Shown here in pieces: positions 3,895 to 44,619 of a stretch of 64,000 bases of DNA (position 1 is its first letter; the number at the start of each line of letters is the position of its first letter). Both the position numbers and the translations under genes were made by a program. The stretch is from the human T2T-CHM13v2.0 reference genome, Homo sapiens, in assembly GCF_009914755.1 (NCBI RefSeq), contig NC_060947.1; one strand, written 5' to 3'. The notes beneath the pieces were generated by a model. That model saw only the letters and a list, made by a program, of their open reading frames with translations. It was not told the origin of the DNA and made no database searches.

Positions 3895-4812
<918 letters not shown>

Positions 4813-28920: not shown

Positions 28921-29012
28921 ATTCCAACTGATGCACCCTGGGAGGCTCAACATGCTGACAAATGGGACAAAATGACCATGAAAGAGCTCATTGACAAAAT
29001 CTGCTGGACAAA
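28921..29012 (+). CDS. MAOA: MAOA exon 5 (92 nt), [30 protein letters not shown](K)
   Basis: ctctacag|ATT acceptor, CAAA|gtaagt donor; peptide is visible in ORF 28798..29016. Confidence 0.97.
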
Positions 29013-29330: not shown

Positions 29331-29703
29331 AAATGTGGTACATTTACACCATGGAATACTATGCAGCCATAAAAAAGAATGAAATCATGTCCTTTTCAGG
29401 GACATGGATGAAGCTGGAAGCCATCATTCTCAGCAAACTAACACAGGAACAGAAAACCAAACATCGCATGTTCTCACTCATAAGTGGGAATTGAACATTA
29501 AGAAGACATGGATGCAGGGAGGGGAACAACACACACTGGAGCCTGTCAGGTGGTGGGAGGAGGGAGAGCATCACGATAGATAACTAATGCATGTGGGTCT
29601 TAATACCTAGGTGATGGGTTGATGGGTGCAGCAAACCACTATGGCACATGTTTACCTATCTAATAAACCTGCACATGTACTCCGGAATTTAAAATAAAAT
29701 AAA
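29331..29703 (+). mobile_element. L1PA 3' end fragment (older primate subfamily)
   Basis: ORF 29312..29494 matches the ORF2 C-terminus (MWYIYTMEYYAAIKK); L1 3' UTR and A-rich tail. Confidence 0.92.
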
Positions 29704-29789
29704 ATGGTAATCCCATATAGATGTGGAATACTAGGAAATGAGAGGAAAGCTAGTCTGTAGTAATAAAAATGTTCAATTAGACCATGTCT

Positions 29790-30045
29790 TATTAGTTTAT
29801 GTGGGGCTTACTATGTGAAGGCACCATACCAGGCACTGAGGAATGGGGGTGAACTTCTTAGGAATAGCCCCTACCCTCATGGAGTTTATGTTTTTCTAGC
29901 AGGCAAGACTGACCTTGAGCACAATTACATAATGCTAGGAGAGTTCCTGTAACAGGGAGAACCTTACATGGTCTGAGGGTACAGGAAGCATTCTTTGATG
30001 AAGCAATCTTTAACCTGAAACTAAGGAGTTAGTGCATCAACTAAG
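29790..30045 (-). mobile_element. L2 element, left piece (interrupted by the tandem array)
   Basis: CTTACTATGTG..GGCAC..TACCAGGCACTG.GGA...GTGAAC...CCCT.CCCTCATGGAG.TTA...TTCTAG resembles the reverse L2 3' end. Confidence 0.65.
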
Positions 30046-33000
30046 AATGAGCCATCGGGGCAGGGGGGAGTCAGAAAAGGTGAACAGTGTAGGGCGATGG
30101 TATCTTCCAGGAATGATACACAGGGACAGGAGAGAGAAAGGAAGAATGGATGAAGTTGGGGGGATAGTATCTGCCAGGAATAAGTCATGGGGCAGGAGAA
30201 AGACAGGAAGGGTGGATGGTGTGGTAGAAATCGTACCTTCCAGGAGTAACCCATAGGGTTGATAGTAGTGGGGCAGATGGTATGATCTAAGAATGACACA
30301 CAGTGTCAAAGGGAGAGAGGGAAGGTTGGACAGTGGTGGTGGGAGGAGGGAATGATATCTTCCAAAAATTACCCACAAGGGCAAGAAGGGAGAAAGGGAT
30401 AATGGAGAAAGATGGGTGGTGTTTTAGGAAAGACCCACAGAAACAAGGCGAGATGGGGACTGGAAGGGTGGATGGCATTGGGGGATTTTGTCTTCTAGGA
30501 ATGAGCCACAGGGATTAGGGGGAGATAGGAAGGACTGATGGGGCAGGAAGATAGTATGTTCCAGGTATGATCCACAGGTTCAGAGGGGAGAAAAGTATAG
30601 TGGATGGTGTTTGCCATGGATGAACCACCAGGATGGTGGGGGAGACAGAAAAGGTTGATGGTGTGGTGGGATGGTATCTTTTATGAATGACCCAAAGGGG
30701 CAAAGGGAAGGCAGGAAAGATGGATGTTGCGGGGATATCATCCACCAACAACCCAGAGGTGTAGTGGGGAGACAGGAGGTGTAGATGGTATTACCAGGAT
30801 ATGTCTTCCAGAAATGAGCCACAAAGGCAGGGATAAGATAGGAAGAGTGAATGGTGTGGCCTGGTTGCATCTTCCAGGAATGCCCCCACAGTGTTAGGGA
30901 GTGGGGAACAAGAATGGATCCCTGTGGGGGTATGGTATCTTCTAGGAATAGCCCACAGAGTCAAGGGGAAACAGGCAACATTAGGTAGTGTGTGTGTGTG
31001 GTGGGGAAATGGGGCGGGGGTGGGGTGGGGAGAATGAAATTTTCCAGCTATTTCTCTCTCTCTGGGGAGAGAAAGGGAAGGTTGGTTTGTGTGGATGGAG
31101 ATGGTATCTTCTAGGAATTACCCAAACCAGAAGGGTGAATGTCTTAGGGGAAGGGGAATTTTCCAGCAATGACCCAGAGGGATGGTGGGGAGACAGGAAA
31201 CATAGATGGTGAGGCAAGATGATGTATTCCAGAAATGACCCACAGGGCAAGGGGTAGATACAAAGGTGGATGGGGTGAGGGAGATGGTCTCTTCCAGTTA
31301 TGACCCACAAGGGTAGAGGGGACACAGATGGTGTAGATCATTTGGCAAAATGGAATTTTCCAGGAATGGTCCACAGGGAAGAGGGTACATAGGAAGGTTT
31401 GGTGGTGTGGCAGGATGGTATCTTCCAGGAATGAGCTACACTGGCAGTGGTAGGGGGGAGAAAGGAAGGGTGGATGGTGAGGGGTCATGGTTTCTTCCAA
31501 GAATGACTCATAGGATTGTACAGGAATGACCCAGAGGGGTAGCGCAGAGAGAGGAAACATGACTGGTGTGGCAGGATATACCTTCCAGGAATGGTCTACA
31601 GGAGCTAGGGGATGCAGGGAAGATGGGCTTGTTTGCAGGCATGGTTCTTCCTGGAGTAACCCAAAGGGTCAGGGGTGAGACAGCAAGGGTGGATATTGGG
31701 CCGCGGATAACTTCCAGCAATGACCAAAAGAGATGGGAGGAGACAGGAAGTGTGGAAGGTGACCAGGATGGTATTTCCAGGAATGACCCTCAAGAGTTGG
31801 GAGAGACAAGTAGGATAGATGATTTGATGGAGTGGTATCTTCCAGGAATGAACCAAAGGGGCAGAAGAAAACATGGTACATTGTGTTTAGAGAGATGGAA
31901 TCTTCCAGGAATGAGTTACCCTGGTGGTGTTTTCGGGGACATGGAAAGGGTGGGGATAGTATCTTCCAGGATGACCCACAAGGCCAAGGGGGGAGACAGG
32001 ACAGGGTGGATACTGTGTTTGTAGGGGGAGGGCATGTTACTTCTCAGGGATGTGACACAGGCACTGTGGGGACACAGAGAAGGGTAGATGTTTTGTGGAG
32101 GAGGTGGTCTCATCCCGAAATGACCCAGAGGGTTTAGAAAGGTGTAGCAGGATGGTATCTTCCAGGAATGAGCCACACGGTTGGTGGCGGGGGAAGATGG
32201 GTGGTATAGAGAGATGGTATCTTCCAGGAATGACCCACAGGGGCAAGGGGGTGACCTGAAGGGTAAAGGTTGTGAAGGGGGATATCTTCCAGTAATCACC
32301 CAAAGGGGTAGGGGGAGATAGGAAGAAAAGATAGTGAGGCAGGATGATATTTTCTAAGAATGGTCTTCAGAATGTGTGGGGTTAAGTAAACAGGAAAGGT
32401 GGATGGTGTAGGAAGATCGTATCTTCCAGGAATGAGCCACCGAGGTTGGGGTGAGACAGGTAGGTGGATGGTTTTGTAGAATGGTATTTTCCAGGAATGA
32501 GCCACAGGGCAGGGGGTAGATATAAAGGATGGATGGTATGGGGGAGATGGTATCTTCCAGGAATGAACTACAAAATTGAGGAAGGAGGGGAATGATGGAT
32601 GAGCTAGGTGGATGGGATCTGCCAGGATGGCCCACAGAGCCAAAAGAAAGACAAGGCAGAGTGGATAATGTAGGGGAAATAGTATCTTCCAGGAATATCA
32701 CACAGGCAATGCAGGGAGGCAGGAAAGGGTAGATGTTTTGGTGAGGGAGTGGTATCATCCCCAAATGACCCAGAGTGGTAGAGGGGAGATAGGATAGTTG
32801 AATGACAGGATAGTATCTTCCAGGAATGAGCCACGGTGACAGTGGTGGGGGTGGGAGACAGTAAGAGTGTATGTGGATGGTATCTTCCACGAATGACCCA
32901 CAGAAGTCAGGGAAATAAGTTTAGGCAAATGGTATCTCCTAGGAATGTGCCAAAAGGGTAGTGGTGGGGGGAGATGGGAATGGTGGATATTGTGGAAGTG

Positions 33001-36000
33001 ATATCATACAGGAATGAGCCAGAGGGGGTAGTGAGGAGTCAGGAATCATGAATGGTGTGGCAGGATATATTTTCAAGGAATGACCCACATGGGCTAAGGG
33101 GACACAGGGAATGTTGGCCTGACTGGGGACATGGTATCTTCCTGGAGTGACTCAAAGGGTTGGGGGAAGATAAGAAGGGTGGATGTTGTGGGGAATACAT
33201 TCCAACAATGACACAGAAGGATGGGGCGAGACACAAAGTGGTTAAGGTGAGGCAGGATGGTATTTTCCAGGTATGACCCACAAGGTTGGGAGAGTAAGAA
33301 AGATGAGTGATGGTGGGGGGTAATGGTATCTTCCAGGATAACCCTCAGGGGTAAGGGTAAACAGGACAAGGTGGATAGTGTTGAAGGGGTTATATCTTTC
33401 AGGAATGTGACTAAGTCTCTGGGGGGAAACAGGGAAGGGTAGATGTTTTGTGAGGGAGTGATACCAAAATGACCCAGAGGAATAGTAGGGAAATAGGACA
33501 GTTGCATGGCATGTCAGGATGGTATCTTCCAGAAATGAGTCACACTGGTGGTGGCGGAAAGAGACAAGAAAGGTGGATGTTATCATTCAAGATGATATCA
33601 TTCAAGAATTACCCAGAGGAATAGGGGAGAGACAGGAAGCCTGACTGGTGTGGCAGGGTATATTTTCTGGGAATGAGCCACAGGTGTGGGAGAAGACAGT
33701 CAGGTTAGATGGTTTGGTGGAATGAAATCTTCCAGGAATGACCCACAGGGTCATGGGGGAAAATTGAAGGGTAGACATTGTGGATGGAGATATCTTCCAG
33801 CAATGACCCAGAGGGATGGGGGAGACAGGAAATGATAATGGTGCAGCAGGATGGTATCCTCCAGGATTGAGCCACACTGGTGGGGTTGTGGGGGTCATGG
33901 TATCTTCCATGAATGACCCACTGGGGTCGAGGGAAGACTGGTAGGGTAGATGGTTTGGCGGAATGTTATTTTACAGGAATGACCCACAGGGCAGAAGGTA
34001 GATAGGAAGGATGGATACAGTAGAAGAGATGGTATGTTCCAGTAATGAGCTATAGAATTTGGGGAGGGGGGGAATGATGGATGAGGTAGGGAGATGGTAT
34101 CTTCCAGGATGACCCACAGAGCCAAGGGGGAGACAAGGCAGACTGGATAATATAAGGGGTATAGTATCTTTCAGGAGTGTGAACCAAGCACTGCAAGGAG
34201 GCAGGGAAGGGTAGATGTTTTAGGAAGAAGGTGGTATCATCCCAAGATAACCAAGAGGATAACAGGAAAATAGAATGGTTAGATGGTGTGGCAGGATGGT
34301 ATCTTCCAGAAATGAGCCAAATGACAGTGGTGGGGGTGGCAGAAGGTATGGGTGGATGGTATCTTCCAAGAATGATTCACAGAGGCAGGGGGTGGCAGAA
34401 GGTATGGGTGGATGGTATCTTCCAAGAATGATTCACAGAGGCAGGGGGAGACAGGGTACATTGGGTTTAGAGAGATGGTGTCTTCCAGGAATGAGACACC
34501 TGGGTAGTAGTAGGGGAGACAGGGTACATTGGGTTTAGAGAGATGGTGTCTTCCAGTAATGAGACACCTGGGTAGTAGTGGGGGAAAACAGGAAGGGTTG
34601 AAGTGTGGGGGGATGATATCATCCTGGAATGAGCCAGAGGATTAGTGTTGGGGGGGTTATATCAGGAATGTGACAAAGGCTCTGCGGGGAAACAGGGAAG
34701 CCTAGATGTTTTAGGGACGGTGTGGTATCACCCCGAAATGATCAGAGGGGTAGTGGGGAGATACAACGGTTGCATGGCGTGGCAGGATGGTATCTTCCAG
34801 GAATGAGTCACACTATGGGTGGTGGGGGAGACCATCAGGGGGATGTTGGCTGGCATGGTATCGTTGTGGAATGACCCAGAGGGACAGGGCAGAGAGAGAA
34901 AGCATGAATGGTGTGGCAGGATATATTTTCCAGGAATGAGTCACAGGGGCAGTAGGGAAACATGAAGAGTAGATGGTGAGGTGGGATGGTACCGCCCAGG
35001 AATGGTCCACAGGAGCTAGGGGATGCAGAGAACATTGGCTTGTTGGCAGGCATGGTTTTTCCTGTAGTGACCCAAAGGGTTGGGAGTGGTGGGGGAGATA
35101 ACTTCCATCCACGACCCAGAGGAGAGGGAGTAGACAGGAAGTGTGGAAGATGACCACGATGGTATCTTCCAGGGATGACCCAAAGGGGCAGAGGGACACA
35201 GGGTGGATTGTGTTTTGAGAGATGGTGTCTTCTAGGAATGAGCCACCCTGGTGGTGCCTGGGGGGACACAGGAAGAGGTATGTGGAGATGGCATCTTCCT
35301 GGATGACCCAAAGGGGAAAGGGGGAGACAAGGCAAGGTGGAAGTGTTGGGGGAGGTGTGACAGTATCTTTCAGGAATGTGGTATAGTCACTGTGGGGAAA
35401 CAGGGAAGGGTAGATGTGGTTATATCATCTCGAAATGACCCAGAGGGGTAGAGGGAAATAGGAAGGTTGCATGGTGTGGCAAGATGGTATCTTCCAGGAA
35501 TGAGGCACACTGGCAGTAGTGGGGGTGGAGACAGGATGGAAGGTGGATGTGGATGGTATTTTCCTGGTGTGACCCGCAGGGGCAGTAGGTAACAGTGGAT
35601 TGGGTTTAGAGAGATGGTGTCTTCCAGCAATCTGCCACAAGGGTGGTTAGAGGTCCAGGGGATACCGGAAGGGTGGATGGTGTAGCAGGATGGTATCTTC
35701 CAGGAATAAACCCTGGCAGGTGGGTGTTTTGGGGGAATTGTGTCTTCCAGGAATGGACCATAGGGGTAGATGGGAGACAGGTAGGGTATGACAGAATGAT
35801 ATTTTCCAGGCATGACCCACAGGGCAGGGGATAGAGAAGAAGGATGAATGTTGCATTGGAGATGGTATCTTCCAGGAATGAACTACGGAATTGGGGAAGC
35901 GGGGGAATGATGGATGACGTAGGGGAATGGGATCTTCCAGAATGGCTCAGAGATCCCAGAGGGAGTCAAGGCAGGGTAAATAATGTAAGAGGGGATAGTA

Positions 36001-37447
36001 TCTTTCAGGAATATGACACAGGCACTATAGGGTAGACGTTTTGGGGAGGAGGCGGTATCATCCTGAAATGACCCGGAGGGGTAGTGGGGAAACAGGAAGG
36101 TTGGATTGTGTGGCAGGATGGTATCTTCCAGGAATGAACCACACTGGTGGTGCTTCGAGGGGGACACAGGACCGGGGATGTTATCTAACAAAATGACTGA
36201 CAGGGAAGAGTAGATAGTTCTGTGTAGGGGTATAGTATCTTTCAGGAACGTGACACAGGCACTGCGGGGAGACAGGGAAGGGTAGATGTCTTAGGGAGTG
36301 GGTGGTATCATCCAGATATGACTCAGGAGTAGGGGGGAAATAGAAAGGTTGGATGGTGTGGCAATATGGTATCTTCCAGGAATGAACCACACAGGTGGTG
36401 ACTGGGGGAGGCAGGAAAGGTGGGTGGTGTTAGGGGATGGTGTCTTCTAGGAATGACCTACAGGAGAAGGGGGAGACACGGTGGATTGGCTTTGGAGAGG
36501 GCCACAGGTGCGGTGGCTGGGGAGACAAGAAGGGCAGATGGTGTGGAAGGATGGTATCTTCCAGAAACAACCCACAGGGATACAGGGAGACAGGGGTTTA
36601 GAGAGATGGTATCTTCCAGGAATGAGCCACATGGGAAGTGGTAGGGAGAGACAGGAAGGATGGACGTTGTTGGGGGTGGTATTCGGGAATGACATAGCTG
36701 GGAATGGGGGAAACAGGAAACAGGAATGCTGTAGCAAGATACATCTTCCAGGAATGAGCCACGAGGGCTTGAGGGGAGACATTATGATTGGATAGTGTTG
36801 GTACATGGTATATTCAAGGAATTAGCCATAGGTTTAGAGGGGAGACAGCAAGAGTAGATGGTGTAGAGAGGATGATATCTGCCTCTAATGGCCCACAGGT
36901 GCACGGGGGAGATAGGGGAGATTAGATAGTGTTGGGGGAATTATATCTTCCGGGAATGTGACACAGGCTCTGGAAGAGATGGTGAAGGTGGAATTTGGTT
37001 GTGGGGTGGGGGAGGGGGGAGGTAATGATATCCCCAAATCACCCATAGTATTAGGGTGGCAATAGGAAGATTGGATGGTGTAGGCAGATGGTATCTACTA
37101 GGAATGACTTTCAGAGTCAGTGGGGACATGTGAAGATAGAAAATGTGTTTGCAGAGATACTGTCTTCTAGGAATGAGACACACTTGCTGAGGGGAGGCAG
37201 GGAAGGGTGTATGTTTTGGGGGCAATGGTACCATCCAGAAATGAACCAGAGGAGTAGGGGATAGACAGGAAGAGTCAATGGTATGTGGCAGGATGCTACC
37301 TTCCAGAAATGACCCACAGGTATGTGGGGAGATAGGAAAGGTTGGATGATGTGGGAAGAATGGTATCTTTCAAGAATGACTCAAAGTTCTCAGGGGAATG
37401 GGGAGACAGGGACGGGTAGATGATGTACAGTGATGGAATCTTCTAGG
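30045..37447 (+). repeat. Degenerate G/purine-rich tandem array, ~60-68-bp monomer, roughly 110-120 copies (length/period estimate)
   Basis: Approximate consensus GGATGGTATCTTCCAGGAATGA(C/G)CCACAGGGG(T/C)AG(T/G)GGGGAGACAGGAAGGGTGGATGGTGTGGCA recurs throughout; recurring GSFLEDTI/HSWKIP/VIPGRYH peptides in minus-strand ORFs. Confidence 0.96.
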
Positions 37448-37890
37448 CATAGAGGACAGGGACAAGCTTTTGTGAAGGCCTTGAGGTGAGAAGGATATTG
37501 GCATGTTTGAGCAACTGAGTGGACAGTGTAGCTGGACCATAGTGATGACAAGAGCAAGTGGTATAAGGGGAGTTTGCAGGACTGGTCTAGAGGCTGATAG
37601 TGCAGGATCTATGGGCCACATTGAATATTTGTCCTTTCTCCACTGAAGATCGTTGAAAGGTTTTAAGCAGAGGGTTTTTTGAGTTTGGCACTTTTAAAAG
37701 CCCTCATTGGCTATAGTGTGGAGGATACAAGAGGAGATGCAAGATGACCAAGTAGGAGCCACCACTGCTATAGCCTGGACATATTGGTAGCCTGGACCAG
37801 GGCTGTGGCAATGAAGATGGAGAGGAGAGGATGGGTATTGAAAGAAGCTTATTGATGCTTAGAGAGAACCTGGATTAGCATACTTGGAGC
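37448..37890 (-). mobile_element. L2 element, right piece
   Basis: AAGGCCTTGAGGTG...TTGGCATGTTTGAG.AACTGA...CAGTGT.GCTGGA.CATAGTGA...GGTTTTAAGCAG continues the L2 consensus from the left piece. Confidence 0.7.
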
Positions 37891-37906
37891 TAACTCATAA
37901 TTTCTT

Positions 37907-44181
<6,275 letters not shown>

Positions 44182-44337: not shown

Positions 44338-44619
<282 letters not shown>

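What the first reader, a model, noticed from the sequence alone, without database searches (positions are those of the whole stretch)
30045..37447. 7.4-kb intronic array with a conserved palindromic core and variable G-rich linkers
Seen: ~60-68-bp units in which a ~22-nt core (GATGGTATCTTCCAGGAATGA) is much better preserved than the ~40-nt G-rich remainder. The core holds the interrupted palindrome TTCC-A-GGAA. The array fills almost half of MAOA intron 5 and matches no satellite family I recognise (not alpha, beta, HSATII/III, D4Z4 or the SVA VNTR). It is distinct from the well-studied MAOA promoter VNTRs. Inference: uneven conservation within the unit points either to protein binding and selection on the core or to slippage-prone G-runs in the linker. 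I know of no description of it, but cannot check the literature.
Basis: partly seen in the sequence, partly recalled or inferred. Interest (0 to 1): 0.85.

Follow-up and report, generated by a model that had tools for sequence, protein, structure and literature searches.

The report
Old transposon-derived repeat array in MAOA
About half of MAOA intron 5 is an old, decayed, one-of-a-kind run of about 110 copies of a 66-base unit that seems to have grown out of an ancient mobile element, and its "conserved core" looks largely like ordinary mutation bias rather than a sign of function.

Summary
The array is real. About 111 head-to-tail units (mode 65-66 bp) span 30035-37450, all on the + strand. 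G is 37% and C 13%, and the array fills 48% of intron 5. In T2T-CHM13 it is a single locus at BLAST and pattern sensitivity.

The claim that the core is "much better preserved" holds only weakly. Identity to consensus is 0.82 in the core against 0.67-0.72 in the rest. The rate ratio is 1.3-1.6. G/C sites evolve about twice as fast as A/T sites in both parts, A sites are equally conserved everywhere, and every internal insertion column lies in or beside a G-run. The two halves of TTCC-A-GGAA are not kept together more often than chance predicts.

Both flanks belong to one ancient dispersed repeat, which I recall as the LINE-2 3' region. The flanks are colinear and adjoin each other in other copies, so the array is an expansion inside that element.

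CpG observed/expected is 0.14, there are no CTCF-like sites, and canonical G4 motifs are not in excess. The array does hold the window's only R-loop-type G clusters and 27 perfect STAT-type sites.

Verdict: most likely a neutral relic and a new member of a known kind. None of the searched papers describes it. Cross-species and population data could not be checked.

The parts
30035..37450 (+). Tandem array of about 111 units with modal length 65-66 bp. It is G-rich on the MAOA sense strand and the units are highly diverged from one another (mean pairwise identity 0.62).
   Evidence: composition
29869..30043 (+). Left flank, part of an ancient dispersed repeat. Its last alignable stretch, 29978-30043, corresponds to family-model columns 173-241.
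   Evidence: The 22-mer at 29869-29890 has 476 genome matches with up to 3 mismatches, against 6 for the reversed control. The local alignment to the family consensus has z=2.5, and 5 of 300 shuffles reach it. nhmmer finds no hit for this flank.
37419..37675 (+). The last partial unit plus the right flank, which align to the same dispersed repeat family at model columns 246-501. The terminal core (TTCTAGG at about 37440) aligns to the family's TTCCAGG.
   Evidence: nhmmer E=6.4e-17. The 22-mer at 37653-37674 has 375 genome matches against 19 for the control.
34294..34585 (+). The only young part of the array. A 56-bp unit is present in 2.1 copies that are 100% alike, and a 68-bp unit in 2.1 copies that are 97% alike.
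30988..31066 (+). An interruption of the array made of (GT)n, a G-rich stretch and a (CT)n stretch.
   Evidence: read directly; it falls in the long 169-nt tile

Best explanation
This is an old, single-locus minisatellite-type array. It arose by repeated local tandem duplication of a roughly 66-bp stretch inside one copy of an ancient interspersed repeat lying in MAOA intron 5. I recall that repeat as the 3' region of LINE-2, but no library check was possible.

After an early phase of growth by unit and multi-unit duplications, most of the array stopped being homogenised and has been decaying neutrally. The apparent 'conserved core' is largely a by-product of three things:
1. The core is A/T-richer, and A/T sites change about half as fast as G/C sites here.
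2. The G-runs of the rest slip and misalign.
3. Units are recognised by their core.

The array probably has no selected function. Its predictable physical property is a 7.4-kb block that is G-rich on the non-template strand and is transcribed as part of the MAOA pre-mRNA.

Shown here: the anatomy, the single-locus status, the rate pattern, and that the flanks belong to a dispersed repeat. Inferred: the birth from that repeat segment, the age, and neutrality.
For: Anatomy and single locus.

Age:
- Mean pairwise unit identity is 0.62, with no favoured unit offset.
- The best internal block duplications are only 74-81% identical.
- Units are 0.73 identical to their own consensus. Copies of the host repeat are 0.61 identical to theirs (n=23), and the window's own flank is 0.53. 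This is consistent with the array being younger than the insertion but still old.

Neutral-type decay:
- CpG is 51 observed against 358 expected.
- G>A is 0.187, C>T 0.126, A>G 0.110 and T>C 0.079 per cell.
- G/C sites are faster than A/T sites in the core as well as in the linker.
- A sites have the same rate in core and linker (0.60 vs 0.62, p=0.96).
- Internal insertion columns lie almost only in the long G-run (14 of 15; the other follows column 53).
- The palindrome halves are not co-conserved.

Origin:
- The left-flank 22-mer has 476 genome matches against 6 for the control. The right-flank 22-mer has 375 against 19.
- A family model was built from 23 of 31 fetched copies. The other 8 were dropped because Alu-like or unrelated sequence lay over the junction.
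- That model aligns 37419-37675 to model columns 246-501 at E=6.4e-17. The left flank ends at model column 241, so the array sits exactly at one point of the element.
- Of 19 other copies carrying the left motif, 6 also match the right-flank model. In 5 of these, model column 246 lies 187-189 nt after the motif. In the window the left flank ends 174 nt after it.
- The best alignment of the unit consensus to the 518-column family consensus falls at columns 229-327, the predicted place.

Known kind: at least 7,276 human mini/satellites, or 23%, derive from transposable elements, and most of them are single-locus (PMC3389668, abstract and section 3 read).
Against: - A residual 1.2- to 1.45-fold slower rate in the core survives every control I ran. 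Stratified by base it is 1.45 for A/T and 1.34 for G/C. With G-runs and edges removed it is 0.69 vs 0.91, p=0.016. The regression coefficient is -0.22 to -0.26. Composition explains only about a third to under half of the raw core-versus-linker difference.
- Interior units do not match the host-repeat model significantly. There is 1 hit at E=0.73, and the reversed control does as well. The consensus-to-consensus alignment is not significant (z=1.5; 83 of 1000 shuffles reach it).
- The left flank gets no nhmmer hit.
- The family name LINE-2 is recalled and was not tested.
- Neutrality was inferred from one genome only. No orthologues, polymorphism or chromatin data were available.
Confidence: 0.75

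Rival explanations
1. The array acts through its strand asymmetry. Because it is G-rich on the non-template strand of a transcribed intron, it forms R-loops and offers hundreds of G-runs in the pre-mRNA. This would slow or pause RNA polymerase II, or recruit G-run-binding splicing factors, and so tune MAOA output or intron 5 removal. It would work like a weak version of an immunoglobulin switch region or of other G-rich intronic repeats.
For: - GC skew is about 0.5 over 7.4 kb.
- There are 268 runs of G>=3 and 137 of G>=4 on the sense strand, against 55 and 4 C-runs.
- My approximate version of a recalled R-loop-forming-sequence rule finds 20 sites in the array and 0 in the other 56.6 kb on either strand.
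- 24% of 100-nt windows in the array have G>=40%, against 0.2% elsewhere.
- There are 41 acceptor-like strings (YYYYNCAGG), against 23 in the rest of the window.
Against: - Canonical G4 motifs number 2, no more than in composition-matched shuffles (2.7 +/- 1.6).
- Mean G is 36.8%, below the 40% usually asked of elongation zones.
- G sites are the fastest-decaying sites, which is the opposite of what selection for G-richness would give.
- Donor-like strings are not enriched.
- The search for MAOA plus R-loop returned 12 papers, and none of the 10 listed concerns this locus (listing only).
- A physical propensity is not a function.
Confidence: 0.12
2. The core is a protein-binding site kept by selection. 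TTCCAGGAA fits the palindromic STAT-type GAS pattern (TTC-N3-GAA, recalled) and GGAA fits ETS-type sites. On this reading the array is a multi-site intronic enhancer or sink, for example for cytokine induction of MAOA in monocytes and macrophages.
For: - There are 27 perfect TTCCAGGAA and 43 TTCNNNGAA in 7.4 kb. The other 56.6 kb holds 2 and 32.
- The core evolves 1.2-1.6 times slower than the rest in all my tests.
- MAOA sits in the IL-4/IL-13-JAK-STAT6 setting in macrophages. However, the passages I read in PMC8192781 concern MAO-A acting on Stat6 signalling, not STAT binding at MAOA.
Against: - The conservation profile follows base identity, not the dyad. G17 of the GAA half-site is 71% kept with rate 1.01, while T9 and T20, outside the palindrome, are among the best kept.
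- The palindrome is intact in 25 of 95 units, against 21.7 expected from independent decay (P=0.17).
- A linker block (GGGGA.A.AG) shows more co-conservation (26 vs 17.5) than the palindrome does.
- CpG depletion to 0.14 suggests long-term germline methylation, not an open element.
- The TTCCAGG part is inherited from the host repeat.
- The search for MAOA + STAT6 + intron + ChIP-seq returned 0 papers.
Confidence: 0.07
3. It is simply a local block of an already catalogued multi-locus satellite or repeat family, so the finding is an annotation gap and not an entity of its own.
For: I had no Dfam or Repbase library, so this was not tested directly. NCBI's masking leaves even the old flanking repeat unmasked, so 'unmasked' says little (hub table).
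Against: - Two BLAST queries from the array hit only this locus in the complete T2T genome.
- The core 21-mer has no cluster anywhere else, only 5 singletons at 2 mismatches.
- A second 21-nt pattern gave scattered single hits that look like a common dispersed element, not arrays. Of its 170 matches, 100 were listed and 70 were not shown.
Confidence: 0.04

Closest known systems
Transposable-element-derived single-locus minisatellites (Ahmed & Liang 2012, PMC3389668)
   Same: Both are tandem expansions of a short internal segment of one interspersed-repeat copy, found at a single locus, and expanded by local duplication of units.
   Different: That survey required at least 95% identity among units, so an array at 62% pairwise identity would not be in it. 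This array is unusually long (about 111 units, 7.4 kb) and unusually old. Derivation of the interior units from the host repeat is not statistically shown here.
MAOA promoter VNTRs (30-bp uVNTR and 10-bp dVNTR)
   Same: Same gene, and both are tandem repeats.
   Different: The promoter VNTRs lie upstream of exon 1, outside this window (the gene starts at -28819). They are short and polymorphic, with reported effects on expression (passages read in PMC12776774 and PMC8239992). The intron 5 array shares no position with them. I did not compare unit sequences, and the papers I read do not mention the array.
Classical G-rich hypervariable minisatellites
   Same: Unit length falls in the 10-100 bp range, there is strong G/C strand asymmetry, and the linker has G-rich motifs.
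   Different: Those arrays are homogeneous and turn over quickly. This one is degenerate, with only two small young patches. Its polymorphism is unknown.
Immunoglobulin switch regions and other R-loop-prone intronic G-rich repeats (recalled)
   Same: They are kilobase-scale, intronic, built of tandem units of tens of bp, and G-rich on the non-template strand.
   Different: G density here is lower (37%). There is no evidence of R-loops or of any programmed role, and the G sites are decaying fastest.
Large intronic VNTR of ABCA7 (25-mer, up to about 10 kb)
   Same: It is a long intronic tandem repeat in a disease-relevant gene. It is known to influence splicing (passages and in the abstract listing for PMC6857246).
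   Different: The ABCA7 repeat is homogeneous and highly length-polymorphic. For the MAOA array neither polymorphism nor any splicing effect is known.
X-linked CTCF-bound tandem arrays (DXZ4/FIRRE type, recalled)
   Same: They are X-linked tandem arrays.
   Different: A recalled CTCF core pattern has 0 matches in the array even with 2 mismatches allowed. CpG observed/expected is 0.14, and the units are 66 bp, not kilobases.

Membership tests
TE-derived single-locus tandem repeat | Head-to-tail units in one orientation at one locus only | tested here: met
   115 HMM hits, all on the + strand and within 30035-37450. BLAST and pattern searches of the whole T2T genome find no second array.
TE-derived single-locus tandem repeat | Both flanks are colinear, adjoining parts of one interspersed-repeat copy | tested here: met
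   Right flank: E=6.4e-17 to the family model, columns 246-501. The left flank ends at model column 241 (weak, z=2.5, and no nhmmer hit). Flank 22-mers have 476 vs 6 and 375 vs 19 genome matches. The two parts are contiguous in 5 of 19 other copies.
TE-derived single-locus tandem repeat | The repeat unit is homologous to a segment of that element | tested here: inconclusive
   The terminal unit's core aligns to the family with high posterior probability. The best consensus alignment falls at the predicted columns 229-327 but is not significant (z=1.5, 83 of 1000 shuffles). Interior units give no significant hit.
TE-derived single-locus tandem repeat | The host element is a named family (LINE-2) | not testable with these tools
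   No Dfam or Repbase library was on hand. The name is recalled from the look of the flank and of the family consensus.
Named human satellite families (alpha, beta, HSATII/III, gamma and others) | Multi-locus arrays sharing the unit | tested here: not met
   Only this locus is found.
Hypervariable G-rich minisatellite | Homogeneous units with ongoing turnover | tested here: not met
   Mean pairwise unit identity is 0.62. TRF detects only five short patches, two of them young. Population polymorphism could not be tested.
STAT/GAS-site cluster | Dyad-symmetric TTC-N3-GAA sites kept as a unit | tested here: not met
   The motif is present 27-43 times, but the half-sites are not co-conserved (25 vs 21.7 expected, P=0.17) and G17 is poorly kept. 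Protein binding could not be tested.
CTCF-bound X-linked tandem arrays | A CTCF motif in each unit and CpG-rich units | tested here: not met
   0 matches to a recalled CTCF core pattern with up to 2 mismatches. CpG observed/expected is 0.14.
R-loop-forming G-rich intronic repeat | G clusters followed by a G-rich tract on the non-template strand | tested here: met
   20 sites in the array against 0 elsewhere in the window, using an approximate, recalled rule. GC skew is about 0.5. Actual R-loop formation could not be tested.
G-quadruplex-forming repeat | An excess of four-G-run motifs with short loops | tested here: not met
   2 motifs against 2.7 +/- 1.6 in shuffles.

The most novel reading that the evidence does not exclude
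A 7.4-kb array born from an ancient mobile element has been retained in MAOA intron 5 because it works in cis. It would act either as a co-transcriptional brake (an R-loop- and G-run-rich RNA tract), or as a dense platform of STAT/ETS-type sites used for cytokine induction of MAOA in myeloid cells. Under that reading, the small residual constraint on the core (about 1.3-fold) would be real purifying selection spread over about 100 sites.
Probability: 0.08. Interest if true: 0.6.

Novelty: new member of a known kind. Interest (0 to 1): 0.17.

Why it matters
MAOA is one of the most studied behavioural and psychiatric candidate genes. All of the repeat literature I could find on it concerns the two promoter VNTRs. 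A 7.4-kb repeat filling half of an intron is worth recording because it can confound short-read mapping, variant calling and methylation or eQTL analyses at this locus, and because its two young patches may vary in copy number. Biologically it is best seen as an example of how an ancient transposon fragment can balloon into a long minisatellite and then decay. The evidence here does not make it a regulatory element.

Tried and rejected
- Regular higher-order repeat: rejected. Mean unit identity is flat (0.613-0.643) for offsets 1-39. Self-BLAST shows only irregular old block duplications, and autocorrelation peaks only at 65-66 and 131.
- Profile search of the whole genome with a sequence-only covariance model (R1): the tool does not take models for this genome. 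I used the pattern and DNA queries that it does offer.
- CTCF array: rejected.
- G-quadruplex array: rejected.
- Structured RNA or miRNA host: Rfam gives 0 matches at E<=1 over 29500-38000.
- Coding repeat: the longest stop-free frames are 203 aa on the - strand and 153 aa on the + strand. Unit lengths of 65 and 66 are about equally common, so no frame is kept. I did not pursue this further.
- Cryptic exons: acceptor-like strings are enriched but donor-like strings are not.
- Alu origin of the unit: a 21-nt unit pattern lies within 2 mismatches of a very common dispersed word (170 hits vs 2 control). I judged this chance similarity, because the flanks point to a different, older element.
- Finding more copies of the flanking repeat by BLAST failed. 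The right flank gave only a 44-nt hit in 17 places. nhmmer of the flanks against the window found nothing. Mismatch-tolerant 22-mer patterns did work.
- Literature: eight answered searches.
  - MAOA + intron 5 + tandem repeat
  - MAOA + minisatellite + intronic
  - MAOA + intron 5
  - MAOA + STAT6 + intron + ChIP-seq, 0 papers
  - MAOA + STAT6
  - transposable elements + 'contributor to tandem repeats'
  - MAOA + R-loop
  - MAOA + intronic + tandem repeat + long-read
  The MAOA passages I read in PMC6299999, PMC12776774, bioRxiv 10.1101/2020.12.16.423078, PMC8096271 and PMC8239992 name only the promoter VNTRs or unrelated matters. Supplementary VNTR catalogues of these papers were not opened and may list pieces of the array.


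Full report
OBSERVATION

The array exists as described.
All 44 are on the + strand between 30096 and 37379, and 100 dinucleotide shuffles gave none.
- A shorter 14-nt core with up to 3 mismatches gives 83 hits inside the region. Outside it there are 6 on the + strand and 5 on the - strand. The commonest spacings are 66 and 65.
- A monomer HMM built from 44 clean units finds 115 stretches, all + strand and all within 30035-37450. No hit falls elsewhere in the 64-kb window, and this held through three iterations.
- Tiling gives 111 units with modal lengths 65 (19 units), 66 (18) and 67 (10). A few long tiles hold degenerate units or a (GT)n/G-rich/(CT)n interruption at about 30988-31066.
- The array is 7,416 nt, or 48% of the 15,372-nt intron between the exons ending at 29012 and starting at 44385. 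Counting exons in the hub table makes this intron 5.
- Composition is A 28.8, C 13.1, G 36.8 and T 21.2%. GC skew is 0.39-0.51 in every 500-nt bin of the array and lower outside it, at most 0.32.
- TRF with standard settings reports only five short patches. TRF-based catalogues would therefore hold only fragments of the array.

ONE LOCUS OR MANY

The complete genome behind the window could be searched.
- Two BLAST queries taken from the array (416 nt and 901 nt) hit nothing but this locus.
- The 21-nt core with up to 2 mismatches has 38 matches in 3.1 Gb. 33 are in the array and 5 are isolated singletons on other chromosomes. The reversed control gave 1.
- A second unit pattern gave 170 matches. 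Among the 100 listed, those outside chrX are scattered single hits to a very common dispersed word.
- A profile search of the genome was not possible. The statement 'single locus' therefore holds at BLAST and word level only.

INTERNAL STRUCTURE AND AGE

- Units are very diverged. Mean pairwise identity is 0.62, and it is flat (0.613-0.643) for unit offsets 1-39, so there is no regular higher-order repeat.
- Self-BLAST shows irregular multi-unit block duplications. The best are 781 nt at 73.9%, 384 nt at 75.5%, 337 nt at 76.6% and 170 nt at 80.6%.
- Only 34294-34585 contains young copies, at 97-100% identity.
- Units are on average 0.73 identical to their consensus.
- This level of decay implies an old array. 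My inference is that it dates to early primate or earlier mammalian history. That could not be checked without other genomes.

IS THE CORE SPECIALLY CONSERVED?

I aligned 95 of the 111 tiles, leaving out 16 tiles shorter than 55 nt or longer than 76 nt.
- Identity to consensus is 0.71-0.95 across core columns 3-22 (mean 0.82). It is 0.72 for linker columns outside G-runs, 0.67 inside G-runs and 0.57 at the unit edges.
- In a second alignment of 77 units, the nearly invariant columns are T9, A19 and T20 in the core, but also A26 and A41 in the linker.
- Per-site rates from a maximum-likelihood tree are 0.69 for columns 3-22 and 1.07 for columns 23-66.
- The strongest predictor of a site's rate is its base. 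G/C consensus sites are faster by 0.44-0.50 (t 6.6-6.9), while core membership lowers the rate by 0.22-0.26 (t -3.1 to -3.4).
- A sites have the same rate in core and linker (0.60 vs 0.62). G sites differ (0.99 vs 1.34), and so do T sites (0.53 vs 0.81).
- The spectrum away from consensus is dominated by G>A (0.187 per cell), then C>T (0.126) and A>G (0.110). This is the ordinary drift of a G/C-rich insert towards the A/T-rich surroundings.
- All 15 internal insertion columns lie in the linker. 14 are in the long G-run between columns 35 and 39 and one follows column 53. None lies in columns 1-35.
- Comparing internally duplicated blocks, which are aligned by their overall similarity, gives mismatch fractions of 0.180 in the core and 0.289 in the rest. 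The ratio is 1.61 overall, 1.45 within A/T sites and 1.34 within G/C sites. This used 74 block pairs, which are not independent.
- Reciprocal anchoring removes the bias of finding units by their core. Units found by the linker alone (n=63) have cores 0.81 identical to consensus. Units found by the core alone (n=71) have linkers 0.74 identical.
- With G-runs and edge columns removed, the core is still about 1.3 times slower (0.69 vs 0.91, p=0.016).

The uneven conservation is therefore real but modest, at 1.3- to 1.6-fold. Base composition explains roughly a third to under half of it. G-run slippage, misalignment and ascertainment plausibly explain more. A small residue remains unexplained.

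THE PALINDROME

- TTCCAGGAA is intact 27 times in the array.
- If a dimeric protein kept it, the two half-sites should be the best-kept positions and should survive together. They do neither.
- G17 of the GAA half is kept in only 71% of units (rate 1.01). The best-kept positions include T9 and T20, which lie outside the dyad.
- The eight specified positions are all intact in 25 of 95 units, against 21.7 +/- 2.9 expected if columns decay independently (P=0.17).
- A linker block shows stronger co-conservation (26 vs 17.5, P=0.003). This probably reflects shared descent of unit subtypes.

ORIGIN

- A 22-mer from the right flank (37653-37674) has 375 genome matches with up to 3 mismatches, against 19 for its reversed control.
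- A 22-mer from the left flank (29869-29890) has 476 matches, against 6 for the control.
- Both flanks are therefore pieces of ancient, high-copy dispersed repeats that BLAST no longer connects.
- I fetched 31 other copies carrying the right-flank word and aligned them. After dropping 8 that had Alu-like or unrelated sequence over the region of interest, I built a family model from the remaining 23.
- The window's last partial unit plus right flank (37419-37675) aligns to model columns 246-501 at E=6.4e-17. In that alignment the terminal unit's TTCTAGG sits on the family's TTCCAGG with high posterior probability.
- The left flank's best local alignment (window 29978-30043) is to model columns 173-241. 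This is weak on its own (z=2.5; 5 of 300 shuffles reach it; no nhmmer hit), but it ends exactly where the right flank begins.
- Of 19 other copies that carry the left-flank word, 6 also match the right-flank model downstream on the same strand. In 5 of these, model column 246 lies 187-189 nt after the word. In the window the left flank ends 174 nt after it.
- So the two flanks adjoin each other in ordinary copies, and in MAOA the array sits between them.
- The unit consensus aligns best to family columns 229-327. This is the predicted place and spans a stretch as long as one unit, but the score is not significant (z=1.5; 83 of 1000 shuffles). Interior units do not hit the family model.
- I therefore treat 'expansion of a roughly 66-nt segment of the host element' as the best-supported inference, not as shown.
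- From the look of the flanks and the family consensus I recall the element as the 3' region of LINE-2. No library was available to test that name.
- Transposon-derived, mostly single-locus minisatellites are a known class: at least 7,276, or 23% of human mini/satellites. That survey required at least 95% unit identity and so would have missed this array (PMC3389668, abstract and section 3 read).

WHAT IT MIGHT DO

Against a regulatory island:
- CpG is 51 observed against 358 expected.
- A recalled CTCF core pattern has no match even with 2 mismatches allowed.
- Rfam gives nothing at E<=1.
- Canonical G4 motifs (2) equal the shuffle expectation.
- No reading frame can be maintained, because units of 65 and 66 nt are about equally common.

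Physical properties that do stand out:
- The array holds all 20 of the window's R-loop-type G-cluster sites. This used an approximate rule that I recalled.
- It has 268 G>=3 runs on the sense strand.
- It has a 13-fold higher density of acceptor-like strings, without donor-like partners.
- It has a dense set of STAT-type sites.

These properties make an R-loop or G-run effect on transcription or splicing, or use as a transcription-factor platform, conceivable. However, the G sites are the fastest to decay and the dyad is not protected. I find no signature of selection beyond the small core residue.

LITERATURE

Six of my eight answered searches combined MAOA with intron 5, minisatellite, tandem repeat, long-read, R-loop or STAT6 terms. 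The other two were MAOA + STAT6 and a search on transposon-derived tandem repeats. The MAOA passages I read in five papers name only the 30-bp and 10-bp promoter VNTRs or unrelated matters. I did not open supplementary VNTR catalogues, which may list the short TRF-detectable patches.

VERDICT

The finding is a real, previously unremarked (as far as I could search) but ordinary kind of object: an ancient, single-locus, transposon-derived minisatellite in neutral decay. The 'strongly conserved palindromic core' is overstated, and the selection reading is not supported. What remains open is the roughly 1.3-fold residual constraint and any co-transcriptional effect of the G-rich tract. Both need other genomes, population data or experiments.

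Noticed in passing
window 3989-4462 (- strand): Another copy of the same ancient dispersed repeat that flanks the array. It was picked up by the first rough family model, next to an Alu-like stretch at about 4483-4720.
   Followed up: no
window 34294-34585: Two young local duplications lie inside the old array: a 56-bp unit in 2.1 copies at 100% identity, and a 68-bp unit in 2.1 copies at 97%. These are the likeliest sites of copy-number polymorphism.
   Followed up: no
window 30988-31066: A (GT)n run followed by a G-rich stretch and a (CT)n stretch interrupts the unit pattern. It falls in the 169-nt tile.
   Followed up: no
array units, e.g. window 32222-32242: The unit stretch TTCCAGGAATGA.CCACAGGG lies within 2 mismatches of a very common dispersed genomic word (170 genome hits against 2 control). 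I recall that word as part of Alu and judged the resemblance to be chance.
   Followed up: partly
window 29520-29705: A high-copy interspersed repeat lies just upstream of the old left flank. The first look found 3,265 candidates, and the 40 that were scored are 82-88% identical over about 185 nt. It was not named.
   Followed up: no
window 37785-37828: A 44-nt piece of the right flank matches 17 other places at 89%. Many are clustered on chromosomes 8, 4 and 11, which suggests it is carried in segmental duplications.
   Followed up: no
array, - strand: Stop-free frames of up to 203 aa occur on the C/T-rich strand. This probably reflects few stop codons in that composition. It was not compared with shuffles or protein families.
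   Followed up: no
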